DNA from: a virus
Length of the DNA: 64,000 nt
Virus record (IMG/VR): IMGVR_UViG_3300025769_014365
Coordinates: 32,196 to 96,195 of that record
Reading direction: 5' to 3' (one strand)
Made by a program: the position numbers and the translations under genes. Position 1 is the first letter of the stretch. Each line of letters starts with the position of its first letter. Below are positions 54,258-58,156 of the stretch, in pieces. Under the pieces are notes generated by a model. That model worked only from the letters and a program-made list of their open reading frames with translations, did no database searches and was not told the DNA's origin.

Positions 54258-55274
54258 CTATAGTAAGTCAAAAAGTTCAGGTAAAAAATTTTCTTTTTGA
54301 AGTCCGGTAAATTTGTCTTGTGCTTGTAAATTTTGTTTTGCGGCTAATATAGATTTTTCTGTTCCGATCCACTCAATTTTCCTATTTTTGAAAAAACCCG
54401 GGTTTAACTTTTCAACAGTTTTCCCCACACGCTCGGGCAAATTTTGGTAATTGAATTCGTCTTCGTGGACAAAATTGAGTTCTATCTTCGTGGGCAATAG
54501 TTTGAACAGCTCTATCATTATTCTATCTATATACAAAATATTCAAATTACTCACAGTGAAATATATAGACAACCTATCCCTGCCAAAATTATCTATGTAC
54601 CTGAGAACATTGTCTCGGACCTGATTCCATTTAGCGGGTTGCCTAATGTATTCAAATATCTTACCGTACCCGTCAAGGGAAAAACAGATATTAAATTTAT
54701 CAAAACTTCTCAACAACTCTATTTGTTTGCTATTGAGCGTCACTGTTCCGTTAGTCTGGAGAGAAAAACTGGTTGATTTTTTTAAGTTAGAAAGAACTTT
54801 CCATAAAGAAAAAGATTTTAAGGTTTCGCCCCCAATGAATTCTATGTGTTCTAGATTTTTTATCTGGCTAATATGAGAGGGATCTGTTTCCAATACCAAC
54901 CCATGTTCCGTGATAATTTTTTCTTTTGGATACATGCTGGAGGCTTTTTTCCACCATGCTGTGCTGGAATCGGGATGACACATCACACAGTAAAGGTTAC
55001 ATAAATTGCCCGTAGGAATCACTACGATTTTTACATTCCTTTTTGACAATCCTAGATACCGTTCATAGAGTCTGTTTGAAACTAACCTTTTACTAATTCC
55101 TCCCTCATCTTCCGTCTTATAACAACGTCTGCAGAATTGACTTCTTATTCCTTTATTATGATCAGATAAAAGTTCAGGAAGTGATTGCTTTTCGTAATTT
55201 TTTCCCAACATACAGCATGGGTTATTGGTTTGATAATCGTGGGCAATGAATGGTCTCACACACTTATTTGACAT
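54258..55274 (-). CDS. radical SAM protein with short N-terminal twitch-like domain (AT-rich)
   Basis: CVRPF...PCC, CRRC, CNLYCVMC, GGET, QTNGT, FSLDG...EYIR.PAKW. Confidence 0.85.
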   Translation of the reverse strand: MSNKCVRPFIAHDYQTNNPCCMLGKNYEKQSLPELLSDHNKGIRSQFCRRCYKTEDEGGISKRLVSNRLYERYLGLSKRNVKIVVIPTGNLCNLYCVMCHPDSSTAWWKKASSMYPKEKIITEHGLVLETDPSHISQIKNLEHIEFIGGETLKSFSLWKVLSNLKKSTSFSLQTNGTVTLNSKQIELLRSFDKFNICFSLDGYGKIFEYIRQPAKWNQVRDNVLRYIDNFGRDRLSIYFTVSNLNILYIDRIMIELFKLLPTKIELNFVHEDEFNYQNLPERVGKTVEKLNPGFFKNRKIEWIGTEKSILAAKQNLQAQDKFTGLQKENFLPELFDLL

Positions 55275-55674
55275 TCTTTAGAATTCCTTTGCCGTGCACA
55301 CGAACACGGATGTGTCCGTTGTAGTAGTCATTACTCTCCAGAACTTTACGAGCGAACTGCTCTCGGGCTTCAACGTATGAAAGTTCGGCTTTGGAATGAC
55401 AATAAAACAAAATCTCCCTCTTAAATTTTTCCCGGCCTAGTTTAAAAACGTCGGCTGTGAGTTCATCACTGCTACCGTAATAATCCTGCCAGTCGGAATC
55501 CACCTTATATCTACGCTTGTTCTTCCTGCCTTTCAGTGGCGGACGGGATCTTTTGAATCTTGCTAGTTTTTTTCCTATGTACATCCTACCGTTTGTGGTG
55601 TTTGTTATGAGGTACACAAACCCCACAACTTCTTCCGGAATATCAGTAATTTCTTTTCCTCGATACGTCCACAT
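55264..55674 (-). CDS. stand-alone GIY-YIG endonuclease
   Basis: GFVYLITN..NGRMYIGKK, YYGSS, F.REIL, E..Q...YN. Confidence 0.88.
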   Translation of the reverse strand: MWTYRGKEITDIPEEVVGFVYLITNTTNGRMYIGKKLARFKRSRPPLKGRKNKRRYKVDSDWQDYYGSSDELTADVFKLGREKFKREILFYCHSKAELSYVEAREQFARKVLESNDYYNGHIRVRVHGKGILKNVK

Positions 55675-55686
55675 TTGAAAGATTTC

Positions 55687-56823
55687 CTATAGGTTCATCC
55701 GCTTGTACACTGTACTTAATAGAGTATCGCCGCCACATATCAAATCAAATATGGTCTGTGTGTGTGAATAGTATTTGTTCTTACGTTTATTCCAAAATGT
55801 TTGGTAATTGTGCTGTGCGGTTTGTGCCAACTTGTCCCGAGCGGTCTCGGAATCGTGTATGTGATCGAGGAACGCTGTCAGGCATGATAATTTTTCCTTT
55901 GTATCTGACTCAGAGTGCCACTGTTCGTAGAAACCATTGTCATACAGAAGATATCCGTAGTCCAGCAAACGATCATGCTGTGGTCTGTGTCCCAAATGCA
56001 CTATAGGTATACCAAGCGCTATGGGTCGGAAGGTCTTTTCTGTGAAGTGCCAATCACCGGTGACTCGTGTTTCCAACACCAACTCGCAGAACGCCTGTTC
56101 GTAGATTTTGAAATTTGGCAAACCATTGCCAAATGCTCTCAGAGCGTTGATGTATTGTCCGGTACCATGCTGTCTCTCTAGGTCTTGGATCAGTTTTTGT
56201 TTACCAACATCCAGCGACTCGCTCGTGTTTGTGCCCACGGAGGTGGCAAATTGGTGCCATATCTTTGAACCACGAAGTTGATCGCCTATTGCTTTCCTGA
56301 AAGGATCTTTGAACACCGTCTGTATCATGAAGGTCTTTGTAGGTTGTCGACTTTTGTGTAACTCCTGTGCCAAAAGCAGGTTAAAGTAATGACTTATCAG
56401 CTGTTCCCAGGCGTCTATGTTGTGCACCTTGATGTTCCTATATGTTCTTTCGAAATAGCCATTGACAATTATAGTTACAGGACAGGACATGGCCAAGTTA
56501 TCCAGTTTATTCATTATCGATGTGGGTATGTGCCATGGATGGTTGCTGTACACTATTAACGCACGAACGCGGCCTTGCTCCATAAGGTCAATGACCTTGA
56601 TGTGCGGACTATCTGATCGTTTCTCATCAACAAAACTTTCGTCCACAAAGAGCCTATCTATCGTTTGATGTTGACAAATCTGTGACAGTTGAGTCAAATC
56701 GATTTCTTGGAGATTTACTCCGCCCGATTCTCGGAAAAATTCCGCCACCCAGCTGGGCAAGTCCAGTCCATGATTCAAAAGATTGTTCTCTACCATCAGT
56801 TCTTTCCGCAATACATGTCGCAA
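55687..56823 (-). CDS. hypothetical protein, possibly glycosyltransferase-related (start uncertain)
   Basis: C-terminal ELVLET...FTEKTFRPIALGIP...G...L..YG...HN motif of a common aquatic-phage family. Confidence 0.5.
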   Translation of the reverse strand: MRHVLRKELMVENNLLNHGLDLPSWVAEFFRESGGVNLQEIDLTQLSQICQHQTIDRLFVDESFVDEKRSDSPHIKVIDLMEQGRVRALIVYSNHPWHIPTSIMNKLDNLAMSCPVTIIVNGYFERTYRNIKVHNIDAWEQLISHYFNLLLAQELHKSRQPTKTFMIQTVFKDPFRKAIGDQLRGSKIWHQFATSVGTNTSESLDVGKQKLIQDLERQHGTGQYINALRAFGNGLPNFKIYEQAFCELVLETRVTGDWHFTEKTFRPIALGIPIVHLGHRPQHDRLLDYGYLLYDNGFYEQWHSESDTKEKLSCLTAFLDHIHDSETARDKLAQTAQHNYQTFWNKRKNKYYSHTQTIFDLICGGDTLLSTVYKRMNL

Positions 56824-57193
56824 CGATATAGTCTTCCTTCCTTAATTTCCAAATCCAGAGACATTATTTCATTCACAGACAGCATGACTGGTATTTAAAG
56901 CCAAAAAGATTGACCCAGAAAGAAAACTCGTATAAACAAGTGCGATAGGCAAACCACAACTTCTCAAAAAAATCTCATAGGCAAACATAGCATCGCAACC
57001 AGTGAGCAAGGAAATGCGGCTTAACAGCGACAGGTGAATCCTTTGATGCAAACGGCAAAAAATGATGGGGCTCTTAGAAAAAGATAATCCCTAGGTCTGT
57101 CATGGATTATTATACAAAGACATGGCGGGCTCGCGTTGTAATGAATGAGCTAACGGGTACAGCACAACCGCCCGACTACGGTAGCGATGTATA

Positions 57194-57270
57194 GTGACTG
57201 CGAACTCACCACAGGGTTCAAGTCGGTTCGGCTAGAAATAGCCGAATTGTGACTGCTCATCTACCACAGG
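57194..57270 (+). repeat. bipartite direct repeat GTGACTGC-N6-ACCACAGG x2 (57194-57215, 57249-57270)
   Basis: 16/16 identity in the two 8-mers; 6-nt spacers GAACTC and TCATCT; 55-bp period. Confidence 0.9.
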
Positions 57271-57271
57271 C

Positions 57272-57295
57272 GACGCATAAATGCGTCACTTTTTT
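57272..57295 (+). terminator. intrinsic terminator-like hairpin
   Basis: GACGCA-TAAA-TGCGTC followed by AC and TTTTTT. Confidence 0.6.
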
Positions 57296-57385
57296 CCACA
57301 ACTGCGTAAGTTAAAAAAAGAAACGAGCGCTAGCGAAGTTTCAGATGGCGTAAGCCGTCTCTGACAGGCCATTAAGTACACTACA

Positions 57386-58156
57386 ATGGAACTACTCTGG
57401 GATCACACTCTGGGCAAACAGGAACACACGGACGTGGTGCTGTGCCGACCCATGGCCAAGGTGGACTCTGACGAGGAACACGAGGCCCTGGATCGCGGTT
57501 GGCTGGCGCTGGACCACCCTGTGATGAATCAGGAGGTGTGGTACCAGTCACGTAGCACACGCATAGACCTGGACCGCTACAAGCCCAGATACACCAAACA
57601 CCAGTGGGACGGCCGTGACATCGGCACCAAGATAATAGACGCCAGCGAGATGGTGAGGCTGTTGGGACTGCCACACATATACGAACAGTACATGAAGCGC
57701 AAGGGCTTCTCGCAGGACTACACACCGTTCGCCCACTACCACGACAGGGACCAGTTCATGATATTCTACGTGGGCACCGCGGACAACATAATAGGATTCA
57801 CCAAGCAGAAGAGGTACAAGTACGAGATGGACCACTACAGCACCATCGACACCTACGACAGCCGGGACCTGGCGGGACTGGAGTCGGTGATACACGCCAA
57901 CACCGTGGCAATATCAGACATCACGCTGGACATGGAGATCGAGTGGGCCTCCATGAACGATGTGGGTTACTTCTACATGGGTTCGGGCTATGAGCGGAGT
58001 AGCCTGTACAAGGCCAACTTCAAGGGCTTCGAGTGGTGGACGGGCACGGAGTGGAGCCGGGACAAGAAGCAGTATCGCAGGCTGTGTGAGCGTGACTCTA
58101 GGATCGATCGGTTTTCGGATCTCGGAAACCTTTCACTGATTCCAGATAAGACCTAG
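57386..58156 (+). CDS. aminoacyl-tRNA:protein transferase-like protein (ATE1/Bpt family-like)
   Basis: N-terminal AL.RGW...WYQSRSTRI; C-terminal EIEWA......YFYMG.GY..S..YKA.F.G.E.W resembles the ATE_C YLG...YK..F.P.E motif. Confidence 0.65.
   Translation: MELLWDHTLGKQEHTDVVLCRPMAKVDSDEEHEALDRGWLALDHPVMNQEVWYQSRSTRIDLDRYKPRYTKHQWDGRDIGTKIIDASEMVRLLGLPHIYEQYMKRKGFSQDYTPFAHYHDRDQFMIFYVGTADNIIGFTKQKRYKYEMDHYSTIDTYDSRDLAGLESVIHANTVAISDITLDMEIEWASMNDVGYFYMGSGYERSSLYKANFKGFEWWTGTEWSRDKKQYRRLCERDSRIDRFSDLGNLSLIPDKT

What the first reader, a model, noticed from the sequence alone, without database searches (positions are those of the whole stretch)
56935..57365. Candidate novel structured ncRNA (~350-430 nt) between a GIY-YIG locus and an aminoacyl-transferase gene
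Seen: this is the largest ORF-free gap in a window where genes mostly abut or overlap, and it is full of stems. (a) TTCGGCTA-GAAA-TAGCCGAA (57227-57246), extendable by GG/TT and AGTC/GACT. (b) AGATGGC-GTAA-GCCGTCT (57343-57360). (c) GTCTGTCATG (57095-57104) pairs with CATGGCGGGC (57121-57130), 10 bp with three G-U. (d) CGGG...CCCG around GGT-ACAGCACA-ACC (57154-57174). (e) GACGCA-TAAA-TGCGTC plus T6. The GNRA loops and G-U pairs are valid only on the + strand, which points to selection on RNA structure. TTGACC and TATAAAC lie upstream (~56910-56937), and ATAGGCAAAC occurs twice near the 5' end. Inference: an unannotated phage RNA (ribozyme, guide or scaffold for the nearby catalytic-domain-only GIY-YIG, or tRNA mimic for the adjacent transferase), or a transcript-primed replication origin like the T4 R-loop origins. 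I cannot match it to a known RNA family by eye.
Basis: partly seen in the sequence, partly recalled or inferred. Interest (0 to 1): 0.85.

Follow-up and report, generated by a model that had tools for sequence, protein, structure and literature searches.

The report
Twin-box structured RNA of marine phages
The gene-free gap holds a real gene for a knotted, roughly 420-base non-coding RNA that is in no RNA catalogue, is common in uncultured marine giant T4-like phages, and shows the same short variable "word" twice, as if it holds two copies of a partner that is still unknown.

Summary
Window 56944-57362 (+ strand) encodes a structured RNA of about 420 nt. It has its own sigma-70-like promoter.

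- **Spread:** an exact 19-mer from it occurs in more than 120 IMG/VR contigs.
- **Structure:** across 86 distinct copies (57-97% identical), 89 proposed pairs are 94.9% canonical. 56 pairs show changes on both sides, against about 35% pairing when the partners are slid.
- **Pseudoknot:** a 6-bp pseudoknot covaries at all six pairs.
- **Strand:** G-U makes up 10.6% of paired cells and A-C 1.2%, which fixes the + strand.
- **No known match:** Rfam 15, ARAGORN, 50,697 phage records and the paper library give no match. A covariance model finds nothing in the four nearest cultured phages.
- **Twin boxes (unexplained):** two bipartite single-stranded boxes carry a hexamer that is identical in both copies in all 86 sequences. 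It has seven variants and changed at least 10 times. I found no complementary partner.
- **Context:** 19 loci lack the downstream aminoacyl-tRNA-transferase-fold gene, and in 4 that gene is divergent. The RNA is therefore an independent gene, not just a leader.

Function is unknown. My best guess is a trans-acting bivalent scaffold. This scan had already found the same family on other genomes ("Twin-box/Twin-word RNA").

The parts
56910..56937 (+). Sigma-70-like promoter: TTGACC (56910-15), 15-17 nt spacer, TATAAAC (56931-37). The predicted RNA start is near 56943-46.
   Evidence: Read from the sequence. 69 of 86 family members carry TTGnnn-N15-18-TAnnnn at the same place, mostly TTGACC with TATAAA or TATATA. 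The strict scan missed it because of the spacer length. The start site is inferred, not mapped.
56945..56986 (+). 5' leader with two copies of AUAGGCAAAC (56945-54, 56977-86) separated by a variable A-rich stretch.
   Evidence: AGGC is kept in both copies across the family. The tails covary in some lineages but not all (read by eye). Role unknown.
56990..57049 (+). Domain 1a. H1 is 56990-94/57045-49. It encloses H2 (57008-12/57039-43) and the H3 hairpin (57015-21/57026-36), which contains the invariant GCGACAGGUGAAUCC segment.
   Evidence: H1 has 4 of 5 pairs with changes on both sides. H2/H3 has 7 of 12 and is 92.5% paired. G57016-U57035 changes to A-C in 15 sequences.
57066..57093 (+). H4 hairpin: 57066-70/57089-93 with an inner 57074-76/57085-87.
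   Evidence: 98-100% paired. 57068:57091 is GC 45 / AU 35. 57075:57086 is UA 44 / GC 42.
57094..57131 (+). H5: an 11-bp helix 57094-104/57121-131 plus 57107-08/57117-18. Its loop supplies one strand of the pseudoknot.
   Evidence: 11 of 13 pairs have changes on both sides and 97.8% are paired. Up to 6 pair types occur per position.
57111..57193 (+). Pseudoknot: loop-5 bases UAUACA (57111-16) pair with UGUAUA (57188-93).
   Evidence: Found by mutual information. One search shows all 6 pairs with changes on both sides and 99.4% paired, for example UAUAC/GUAUA becoming UGUGU/ACACA, CAAUC/GAUUG or UGUAAG/CUUACA.
57133..57276 (+). Tentative closing helix of domain 2: GCGU 57133-36 with ACGC 57273-76. 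It excludes hairpin e, which uses the same ACGC.
   Evidence: 94.7% paired but with no change on both sides. ACGC is kept in members that lack hairpin e. This is inference.
57149..57185 (+). Three-way junction. The stem is 57149-50/57184-85. H6 is 57154-58/57170-74 with the conserved loop ACAGCACAACC. A mini-hairpin 57175-76/57181-82 has a UACG tetraloop.
   Evidence: H6 is 100% paired (CG 57 / UA 28). The mini-hairpin is 98.8% paired, and its loop swaps between UACG, GAAA, GAGA and GCAA. U57151:A57183 is not supported (38 of 86).
57195..57213 (+). Twin unit A: box 1 UGACUGC (57195-201), spacer GAACUC, word ACCACA (57208-13). The word lies in the loop of hairpin A (57202-05/57216-19).
   Evidence: The word is identical to the unit-B word in 86 of 86 sequences. 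The hairpin A stem is only 77.7% paired.
57224..57249 (+). H7: an 11-bp hairpin with a GAAA tetraloop, between the twin units.
   Evidence: 98.7% paired, with 4 pairs changed on both sides. GUUC 57226-29 can also pair with GAAU 57143-46 (100% pairable in 86 of 86). That points to an alternative helix or a triple.
57250..57268 (+). Twin unit B: box 1 UGACUGC (57250-56), spacer UCAUCU, word ACCACA (57263-68).
   Evidence: There are seven word variants (ACCACA, GCCACA, AGCACA, AGUACA, ACUACA, ACAUAA.., ACGUGA..), always the same in both units. At least 10 changes occur on a tree built without these columns.
57272..57297 (+). Hairpin e (57272-77/57282-87) followed by UUUUUU. It looks like an intrinsic terminator and is optional in the family.
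   Evidence: flags it as terminator-like. One search shows it present in about 62-66 of 86 members, with 90% pairing. One search shows it absent in L051, L058, L106, L119, L146, L186 and others.
57300..57362 (+). 3' domain. It has a small hairpin AACU-GCGUA-AGUU (57300-12), H8 (57320-24/57338-42 with an inner GC-GUAA-GC), and H9 (57343-49/57354-60, GUAA loop). In about half of the members H9 is followed by a U-rich tail.
   Evidence: H8 has 5 of 5 and H9 6 of 7 pairs changed on both sides. The 3' domain is kept in loci without a downstream gene. The 3' end is not mapped.
57386..58156 (+). Frequent neighbour: a 256-aa protein with the fold of aminoacyl-tRNA-dependent transferases (ATE1, MprF, FemX).
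   Evidence: No Pfam, PHROG or PDB sequence match. The AlphaFold model has pLDDT 84. The top Foldseek hits are ATE1, L-PGS/MprF and FemX. Its position relative to the RNA: downstream on the same strand in 46 loci, divergent upstream in 4, absent in 19.
55264..55674 (-). Frequent neighbour: a 136-aa GIY-YIG protein with only the catalytic domain (SegE-type). In this window a 378-aa ORF separates it from the RNA.
   Evidence: Pfam PF19835, E = 1.6e-36. It is divergent and directly upstream of the RNA in 69 loci and within 2.5 kb in 8 more, out of 91 determinable loci. Homologues also occur in cultured phages that lack the RNA.

Best explanation
**Shown.** Window ~56944-57362 (+) is a gene for a compactly folded non-coding RNA of about 420 nt.
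- It has at least 13 helices, one 6-bp pseudoknot, a three-way junction, and GNRA and UNCG tetraloops.
- It is conserved in a large clade of uncultured marine jumbo T4-like phages.
- It belongs to no described RNA family.

**Inferred.**
- Host RNA polymerase transcribes it early from its own sigma-70-like promoter.
- Transcription ends either at the optional internal terminator-like hairpin (about 57297) or after H9 (about 57362).
- It acts in trans as a scaffold.
- The folded core presents two copies of one bipartite single-stranded element: UGACUGC, 6-7 nt, then ACCACA.
- These two copies hold two copies, or a dimer, of an outside partner. The partner is most likely a nucleic acid recognised by base pairing, because the hexamer changes often and always in both copies at once.
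- The aminoacyl-tRNA-transferase-fold protein usually encoded beside the RNA is a candidate co-worker, but it is not obligatory.
For: **A real structured RNA**
- 86 distinct copies, 57-97% identical to the window, were aligned by MAFFT with no structural input. 89 pairs are 94.9% canonical.
- 56 pairs have changes on both sides (852 cells, against 204 in shuffles; 0 of 500 shuffles reach the observed value).
- The covariation score is 0.374, against at most 0.081 for slid partners.
- The pseudoknot covaries at 6 of 6 pairs.
- Tetraloops swap between UACG and GNRA.
- G-U is 10.6% of paired cells and A-C 1.2%. The fold z-score is -2.99 on the + strand and -0.80 on the - strand.

**An independent gene**
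- The promoter is conserved.
- In 19 loci no transferase-like gene lies on either flank, and sampled loci have opposite-strand genes on both sides.
- A 196-kb record with the RNA has no such gene.
- In 4 loci the transferase-like gene is divergent, so the RNA cannot be its leader there.
- The genome record holds a single copy.

**Twin boxes**
- The hexamer is identical in both copies in 86 of 86 sequences, with 7 variants and at least 10 changes on the tree.
- The spacers inside the two units differ and are each conserved, which argues against gene conversion of the whole unit.
- No complementary sequence exists inside the RNA.

**New family**
- No Rfam hit at gathering score, and only a chance snoRNA hit at E of about 10.
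- No tRNA or tmRNA, no phage record, no paper.
Against: - No transcript data could be examined here, so expression and both ends are inferred.
- No partner was found. Complementary words are not enriched in up to 15 kb of flanks.
- The three candidate sites with complementary words do not covary with the word.
- The records examined carry no tRNA genes.
- In this window the RNA runs straight into the 256-aa gene. A terminator-like hairpin shares ACGC with the tentative closing helix, which would also fit a cis-acting switch.
- Identical twin boxes could instead serve the RNA's own folding or oligomerisation, or be protein sites on the DNA.
- All members come from related phages, so conserved neighbours may reflect shared ancestry rather than function.
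Confidence: 0.55

Rival explanations
1. It is a cis-acting leader, like a riboswitch or T-box, for the downstream transferase-like gene. A bound ligand or RNA would stabilise the closing helix 57133-36/57273-76. That would withhold ACGC from the terminator hairpin 57272-87 and let transcription read through H8/H9 into the 256-aa gene.
For: - The RNA lies on the same strand, with about 21-38 nt between H9 and the start codon, in 46 loci.
- The terminator-like hairpin with a U run shares ACGC with the tentative closing helix.
- The size and the conserved unpaired core resemble large leaders.
- The regulated gene would have an aminoacyl-tRNA-related fold, as T-box-regulated genes do.
Against: - 19 loci have no such gene on either flank, yet keep the full RNA including H8/H9.
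- In 4 loci the gene is divergent.
- A quarter of members lack the terminator hairpin.
- The closing helix has no compensatory change.
- No T-box or riboswitch model matches.
Confidence: 0.15
2. It is an RNA-only architectural particle, like ROOL, GOLLD or OLE. The RNA would self-assemble into a dimer or cage, and the twin boxes, the many GNRA loops and the GAAU/GUUC alternative pairing would be intermolecular contacts.
For: - It is large, ornate and phage-borne, and carries four GNRA loops.
- The alternative pairing of GUUC 57226-29 with two identical GAAU strands is possible in 86 of 86 sequences.
- Cryo-EM has shown that such phage-associated RNAs form homo-oligomers (10.1101/2024.12.08.627333, listed; I read only the abstract).
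Against: - There is no sequence or model similarity to ROOL, GOLLD, OLE or raiA.
- The twin words are neither self-complementary in most variants nor complementary to anything in the RNA, so kissing contacts cannot explain them.
- The double change in the GAAU twin is a single evolutionary event.
Confidence: 0.1
3. It is a ribozyme. Each twin unit (box 1, spacer, word) would be a pair of substrate-binding arms for a trans RNA target.
For: - The highly conserved unpaired nucleotides (ACAGCACAACC, GCGACAGGUGAAUCC, CUCGCGUUG) sit in a knotted core.
- A bipartite arm-spacer-arm layout is typical of small trans-cleaving ribozymes (my own knowledge).
Against: - No ribozyme family matches.
- No target was found.
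- There is no evidence of processing.
Confidence: 0.07
4. It is a DNA-level element: a replication origin, or iteron-like protein-binding sites. The two 20-bp direct repeats, 55 bp apart, would be bound by a phage protein, and the transcript would be incidental or would act as a primer.
For: - Direct repeats about five helical turns apart that covary as identical sequences are what iterons do (my own knowledge).
Against: - A DNA site does not explain 56 pairs with compensatory changes, a covarying pseudoknot, tetraloop swaps or the ninefold excess of G-U over A-C.
- Only 13 of about 20 bases in each repeat are shared.
Confidence: 0.04

Closest known systems
ROOL (RF03087) and GOLLD (RF01998) RNAs
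   Same: They are large (over 400 nt), intricately folded non-coding RNAs of unknown function. They are often carried by phages or prophages, were found by comparative genomics, and are rich in pseudoknots and tetraloops.
   Different: There is no match to either covariance model, even at E <= 10. The host phages differ: marine jumbo T4-like rather than Firmicutes or rumen/lake phages. There is no tRNA cluster nearby. The twin covarying boxes have no described counterpart in those RNAs (this last point is from my own knowledge, not checked here).
T-box leader RNAs (RF00230)
   Same: They are long structured RNAs upstream of genes tied to aminoacyl-tRNA. They read a nucleic-acid partner through short single-stranded sequences that vary with the partner, and they have a terminator that competes with another helix.
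   Different: There is no model match, no T-box sequence and no Stem I features. There are two identical recognition words instead of a specifier plus a UGGN bulge. The RNA also occurs without any downstream gene.
Bivalent or programmable guide RNAs (IS110 bridge RNA; DRT2 ncRNA with its repeated ACA motifs; telomerase RNA template repeats)
   Same: They have two short single-stranded segments in one folded RNA whose sequences must stay matched to each other. That produces 'identical' covariation rather than complementary covariation.
   Different: No IS110 recombinase or reverse transcriptase lies in the record. The 55-nt unit between the words has stop codons in every frame on both strands (my reading). 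The neighbours are a GIY-YIG domain protein and a transferase-fold protein. The resemblance is one of logic only and comes from my own knowledge.
'Twin-box / Twin-word structured RNA of marine phages'
   Same: It is the same family. Those findings share 18-43 of 85 short words with this window. They describe the same size, knot, twin covarying words, neighbours and lack of a catalogue match.
   Different: This is another genome. Here a 378-aa ORF separates the RNA from the GIY-YIG gene.

Membership tests
Any Rfam 15 family (4227 models) | Score at or above the family's gathering threshold with its covariance model | tested here: not met
   The whole window scanned at gathering thresholds gave 0 hits. 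Scanning 56600-57600 at E <= 10 gave only a chance snR75 hit of 12.4 bits on the - strand.
ROOL / GOLLD / OLE / raiA large RNAs | Match to the family model (conserved core sequence and structure) | tested here: not met
   No hit, even at E <= 10.
ROOL / GOLLD | Homo-oligomeric RNA-only assembly | not testable with these tools
   This needs biophysics or cryo-EM.
T-box riboswitch | Stem I with a specifier loop, a conserved T-box antiterminator sequence, and a downstream regulated gene | tested here: not met
   There is no RF00230 match. 19 loci have no downstream gene and in 4 loci the gene is divergent.
tRNA / tmRNA / tRNA-like element | Cloverleaf or tRNA-like domain detectable by ARAGORN or RF00005 | tested here: not met
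   ARAGORN finds 0 genes in the window and in the 96-kb record. RF00005 has no match in G000.
   Not among the hits at E <= 10.
Type III antitoxin RNA (ToxI-like) | Tandem, near-identical full-length repeats, next to a toxin endoribonuclease gene | tested here: not met
   Only 13 of 55 nt are shared between the two units. The neighbours are a GIY-YIG protein and a transferase-fold protein.
Structured non-coding RNA (generic) | Compensatory base changes that keep helices, on one strand | tested here: met
   56 of 89 pairs have changes on both sides. 94.9% are paired, against about 35% for slid controls. G-U is 10.6% of paired cells and A-C 1.2%.
Independent RNA gene (as opposed to a UTR) | Own promoter and terminator, and occurrence without a co-oriented downstream gene | tested here: inconclusive
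   The promoter motif is conserved and stand-alone loci exist.

The most novel reading that the evidence does not exclude
The twin boxes are programmable guides. The RNA would be a natural bivalent guide that base-pairs with two copies of one nucleic-acid target. The targets could be two tRNAs or two RNA or DNA ends. The RNA would hand them to a phage enzyme encoded beside it: either the aminoacyl-tRNA-transferase-fold protein or the GIY-YIG nuclease that lacks a DNA-binding domain. That would be an RNA-guided enzyme system of a kind not yet described.
Probability: 0.1. Interest if true: 0.95.

Novelty: categorically new. Interest (0 to 1): 0.8.

Why it matters
Large, highly structured bacterial and phage RNAs are rare. 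Almost every class found so far has turned out to be a ribozyme, a riboswitch, or most recently an RNA-only nanostructure.

- This RNA is abundant in marine viral metagenomes, with more than 120 contigs carrying an exact 19-mer.
- It has enough sequence diversity for a near-complete secondary-structure model.
- It carries an unusual evolutionary signature: two single-stranded hexamers that changed at least ten times and always together. That signature points to a specific, testable interaction.
- It is also genetically linked to a phage protein with an aminoacyl-tRNA-transferase fold that no cultured phage encodes.

Working out the partner could reveal a new way in which giant phages manipulate host RNA or protein metabolism, or a new programmable RNA tool.

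Tried and rejected
1. **Known RNA families:** Rfam at gathering score and at E <= 10, ARAGORN, and RF00005 all found nothing.
2. **Similar DNA in 50,697 phage records:** none. The 256-aa protein also has no homologue there.
3. **Nearest cultured phages:** covariance model R1 of domain 2 was run against PA5oct, Phosso, Atu_ph07 and Melnitz-3. It gave only chance hits (E about 0.2) while scoring 173.7 bits on the window.
4. **Bacterial genomes:** the 19-mer was scanned in 185,579 species. It found 4 real copies on short MAG contigs, probably mis-binned phage DNA, and 3 chance 20-mers in coding DNA.
5. **Partner in the transferase mRNA:** 57537-50 (UGUGGUACCAGUCA) complements both boxes in this window. 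It lies in a conserved peptide motif and does not follow the word in other phages. I take it as coincidence.
6. **Partner elsewhere in the flanks:** anti-words are not enriched. Two orthologous sites that looked promising do not covary with the word.
7. **Rolling-circle template, as in DRT2:** the record has no reverse transcriptase, and the 55-nt unit has stops in all frames.
8. **Helix AUGAGC/GCUCAU (57144-50/57255-61) from RNAalifold:** it is broken in several lineages with no compensation. C57150 pairs with G57184 instead.
47% paired.
10. **Small ORFs in the gap:** the 30-aa + strand ORF's ATG is not conserved. The region has indels that are not multiples of three.
12. **Fremin et al. 2023 (PMC10690425):** they catalogued 29-151-nt motifs from IMG/VR, and pieces of this RNA could be among them. 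Their supplementary files are not held, so I could not check.
13. **Literal sequence strings in 8.4 million papers and preprints:** none.
Full report
**Where it lies.** The window is part of a 96-kb IMG/VR viral record, estimated at about 27% of a genome. It carries T4-type genes: gp46-like SbcC, a gp51 baseplate hub, and a 4281-aa virion ORF. By gp46, the nearest cultured relatives are the jumbo phages PA5oct, Phosso and Atu_ph07, at 43-48% amino-acid identity. The finding sits in a 562-nt gap (56824-57385). On its left is a minus-strand 378-aa ORF and on its right a plus-strand 256-aa ORF. This is the largest gap between ORFs of at least 90 aa in the window.

The + strand folds better than shuffles (z = -2.99). 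The - strand does not (z = -0.80). A terminator-like hairpin with a U run lies at 57272-57297 on the + strand.

**Relatives.**
- The 256-aa protein recovered 15 viral loci. In 9 of them the upstream DNA is 81-96% identical to the gap, which in several cases is better conserved than the protein.
- Two conserved motifs were then used as exact patterns.
- In all, 155 fetched loci carry the element at 67-100% identity. 92 distinct copies had enough flank to extract whole.
- It is single-copy in its own record.
- No cultured phage record has similar DNA.
- The 19-mer also occurs on four short MAG contigs with full copies, probably mis-binned phage DNA. It occurs three times by chance in bacterial coding DNA.

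**Structure.** RNAalifold and a mutual-information scan on a structure-blind MAFFT alignment gave a consistent model. I curated it and tested it with the pair-counting tool on a fresh MAFFT alignment of 86 distinct copies, 57-97% identical to the window.

| Measure (89 pairs, 16 helices) | Observed | Controls |
|---|---|---|
| Cells with a standard pair | 94.9% | 83.7% in shuffles; 31-38% with partners slid 1-3 columns |
| Pairs changed on both sides | 56 | 39.7 in shuffles |
| Cells changed on both sides | 852 | 204 in shuffles; 0 of 500 shuffles reach the observed value |
| Covariation score | 0.374 | at most 0.081 with slid partners |

- The best helices are H5 (57094-104/57121-131), H2, H4, H6, H7, H8 and H9.
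- Mutual information also revealed a pseudoknot that no folding program proposed. Loop-5 bases 57111-16 pair with 57188-93. All six pairs covary and 99.4% are paired.
- It also revealed a two-pair hairpin whose tetraloop swaps between UACG and GNRA.
- G-U pairs make up 10.6% of paired cells and A-C only 1.2%. The structure therefore exists on the + strand RNA.
- Weak or unsupported: the closing helix 57133-36/57273-76 (invariant, no compensatory change), the stem of hairpin A (77.7% paired), and U57151:A57183.

**Gene or leader?**
- A sigma-70-like promoter, TTGACC-N15-TATAAA at 56910-56936, is conserved in position. 69 of 86 members have a TTGnnn-N15-18-TAnnnn match.
- The RNA is followed on the same strand by the 256-aa gene in 46 distinct loci.
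- In 19 loci with at least 1.1 kb on both sides there is no such gene. Sampled cases have opposite-strand genes on both flanks: a coiled-coil protein or the baseplate hub downstream, and GIY-YIG upstream. All of them keep the whole RNA including H8/H9.
- A 196-kb record (about 55% of a genome) with the RNA has no homologue of the protein at all.
- In a divergent clade (L020, L023, L083, L110) the protein gene is next to the RNA but divergently transcribed.
- The RNA is therefore a gene in its own right. Its link to the protein survives a rearrangement, which hints at a functional tie, but the link is not obligatory.
- The internal hairpin e is present in about three quarters of members. It shares ACGC with the tentative closing helix. 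A short and a long isoform, or a switch, are therefore possible in this window. This is inference.

**The neighbours.**
- The 256-aa protein has no Pfam, PHROG or PDB sequence match, and no homologue in cultured phages.
- An AlphaFold model (pLDDT 84) matches ATE1, MprF/L-PGS and FemX. All of these are aminoacyl-tRNA-dependent transferases with tandem GNAT folds.
- The GIY-YIG protein (PF19835, catalytic domain only) lies divergently next to the RNA in 69 of 91 determinable loci and within 2.5 kb in 8 more.
- Its family is also widespread in cyanophages and in the OM43 phage Melnitz-3, where no large gap or RNA lies beside it. Shared ancestry may explain the adjacency.

**The odd part: the twin boxes.**
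- Two direct repeats, 55 nt apart, flank H7. Each has box 1 (UGACUGC), a 6-7-nt spacer and a hexamer word (ACCACA).
- The word is identical in the two copies in all 86 sequences. It occurs as seven variants: ACCACA 49, GCCACA 15, AGCACA 9, AGUACA 5, ACAUAA 5, ACGUGA 2 and ACUACA 1. L020 adds ACAUGAUG.
- On a tree built without these columns the word changed at least 10 times. Box 1 mostly follows the same rule.
- The spacers differ between the copies (GAACUC against UCAUCU) and are each conserved. Gene conversion of the whole unit is therefore unlikely.
- Nothing in the RNA is complementary to the boxes.
- I looked for a partner in the flanks. Anti-words are not enriched.
- A striking site in the 256-aa gene of this window, 57537-50, complements both boxes. 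But it lies in a conserved peptide motif and does not track the word.
- Two further orthologous sites also fail to track the word.
- The records examined have no tRNA genes and no reverse transcriptase.
- A third twin exists. GAAU at 57143-46 and GAAU at 57244-47 can each pair with GUUC at 57226-29 (100% pairable). This suggests an alternative helix or a base triple. Its only double change is one evolutionary event, so the evidence is thin.

**What it most likely is.**
- Shown: a new, widespread, knotted structured RNA encoded on the + strand.
- Inferred: it is transcribed early from its own promoter and acts in trans. Its conserved core displays two copies of a bipartite recognition element for an outside partner. 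That partner is probably a nucleic acid, since the word changes often and by single bases.
- The transferase-fold protein is a candidate co-worker.
- Rivals, with my odds, are a cis-acting switch (0.15), an RNA-only assembly (0.10), a ribozyme (0.07) and a DNA-level site (0.04).

**Comparison with what is known.**
- It works like, at most, the large 'ornate' phage RNAs ROOL and GOLLD in size and setting, and like bivalent guide RNAs in logic.
- It is a member of none. All 4227 Rfam models fail.
- A covariance model of domain 2 scores 173.7 bits on the window but finds nothing in Melnitz-3, PA5oct, Phosso or Atu_ph07.
- The paper library holds no paper with its sequence strings.
- Fremin et al. 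2023 (PMC10690425) catalogued 29-151-nt motifs from IMG/VR that might include fragments of it. I could not check this.
- Earlier follow-ups in this scan found the same family on at least six other genomes and reached the same reading. I re-derived the structure, the twin boxes and the lack of a catalogue match independently.

**Verdict.** The finding is real and of high interest. The function is open. The decisive steps are mapping transcript ends, structural and biophysical work on the transcript, and a genome-wide search for a covarying partner in complete genomes of this phage clade and their hosts.

Noticed in passing
window 57386-58156 (+): The 256-aa protein has no family by sequence, but its AlphaFold model (pLDDT 84) matches ATE1, MprF/L-PGS and FemX, the aminoacyl-tRNA-dependent transferases. 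It has hundreds of marine metagenome homologues and none in cultured phages.
   Followed up: partly
window 55264-55674 (-): This is a 136-aa SegE-type GIY-YIG protein with no DNA-binding domain. Its homologues in many cyanophage records are annotated 'NAD synthetase', which looks like a propagated misannotation. The best cultured match is Methylophilales phage Melnitz-3 (60% identity).
   Followed up: partly
window 55687-56823 (-): This 378-aa ORF (TTG start) has no Pfam or PHROG match. It is inserted between the GIY-YIG gene and the RNA in this lineage only (L002/L017 at 94% identity; distant 44-49% homologues in L117, L146 and L173).
   Followed up: no
window 57537-57550 (+): UGUGGUACCAGUCA inside the 256-aa gene is complementary to both twin boxes with a 2-nt gap. 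It encodes the conserved VWYQS motif and does not covary with the word in other phages, so I take it as coincidence.
   Followed up: yes
window 57371-57385 (+): TTAAGTA (TTAAATA in some relatives) is conserved just before the ATG of the 256-aa gene. It resembles a T4-type late promoter and would give a nearly leaderless mRNA.
   Followed up: no
L192:7323-7709: This is a natural variant in which the 3' domain (H8/H9) is deleted and the RNA runs directly into the transferase-like gene.
   Followed up: no
window 57304-57310, 57327-57334, 57348-57355 (+): The motif GCGUAAG (a GUAA tetraloop closed by C-G) recurs three times in the 3' domain. Some relatives carry a fourth copy.
   Followed up: no
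L020:4095-4480 (+), L020:3323-4048 (-): A divergent clade of the same RNA has the word ACAUGAUG in both units. Here the transferase-like gene (27% identical) is transcribed divergently from the RNA rather than downstream of it.
   Followed up: partly
window 54258-55274 (-): This is a 338-aa radical-SAM-like protein (a weak Pfam hit below the cut-off; PHROG radical SAM family) immediately downstream of the GIY-YIG gene.
   Followed up: no
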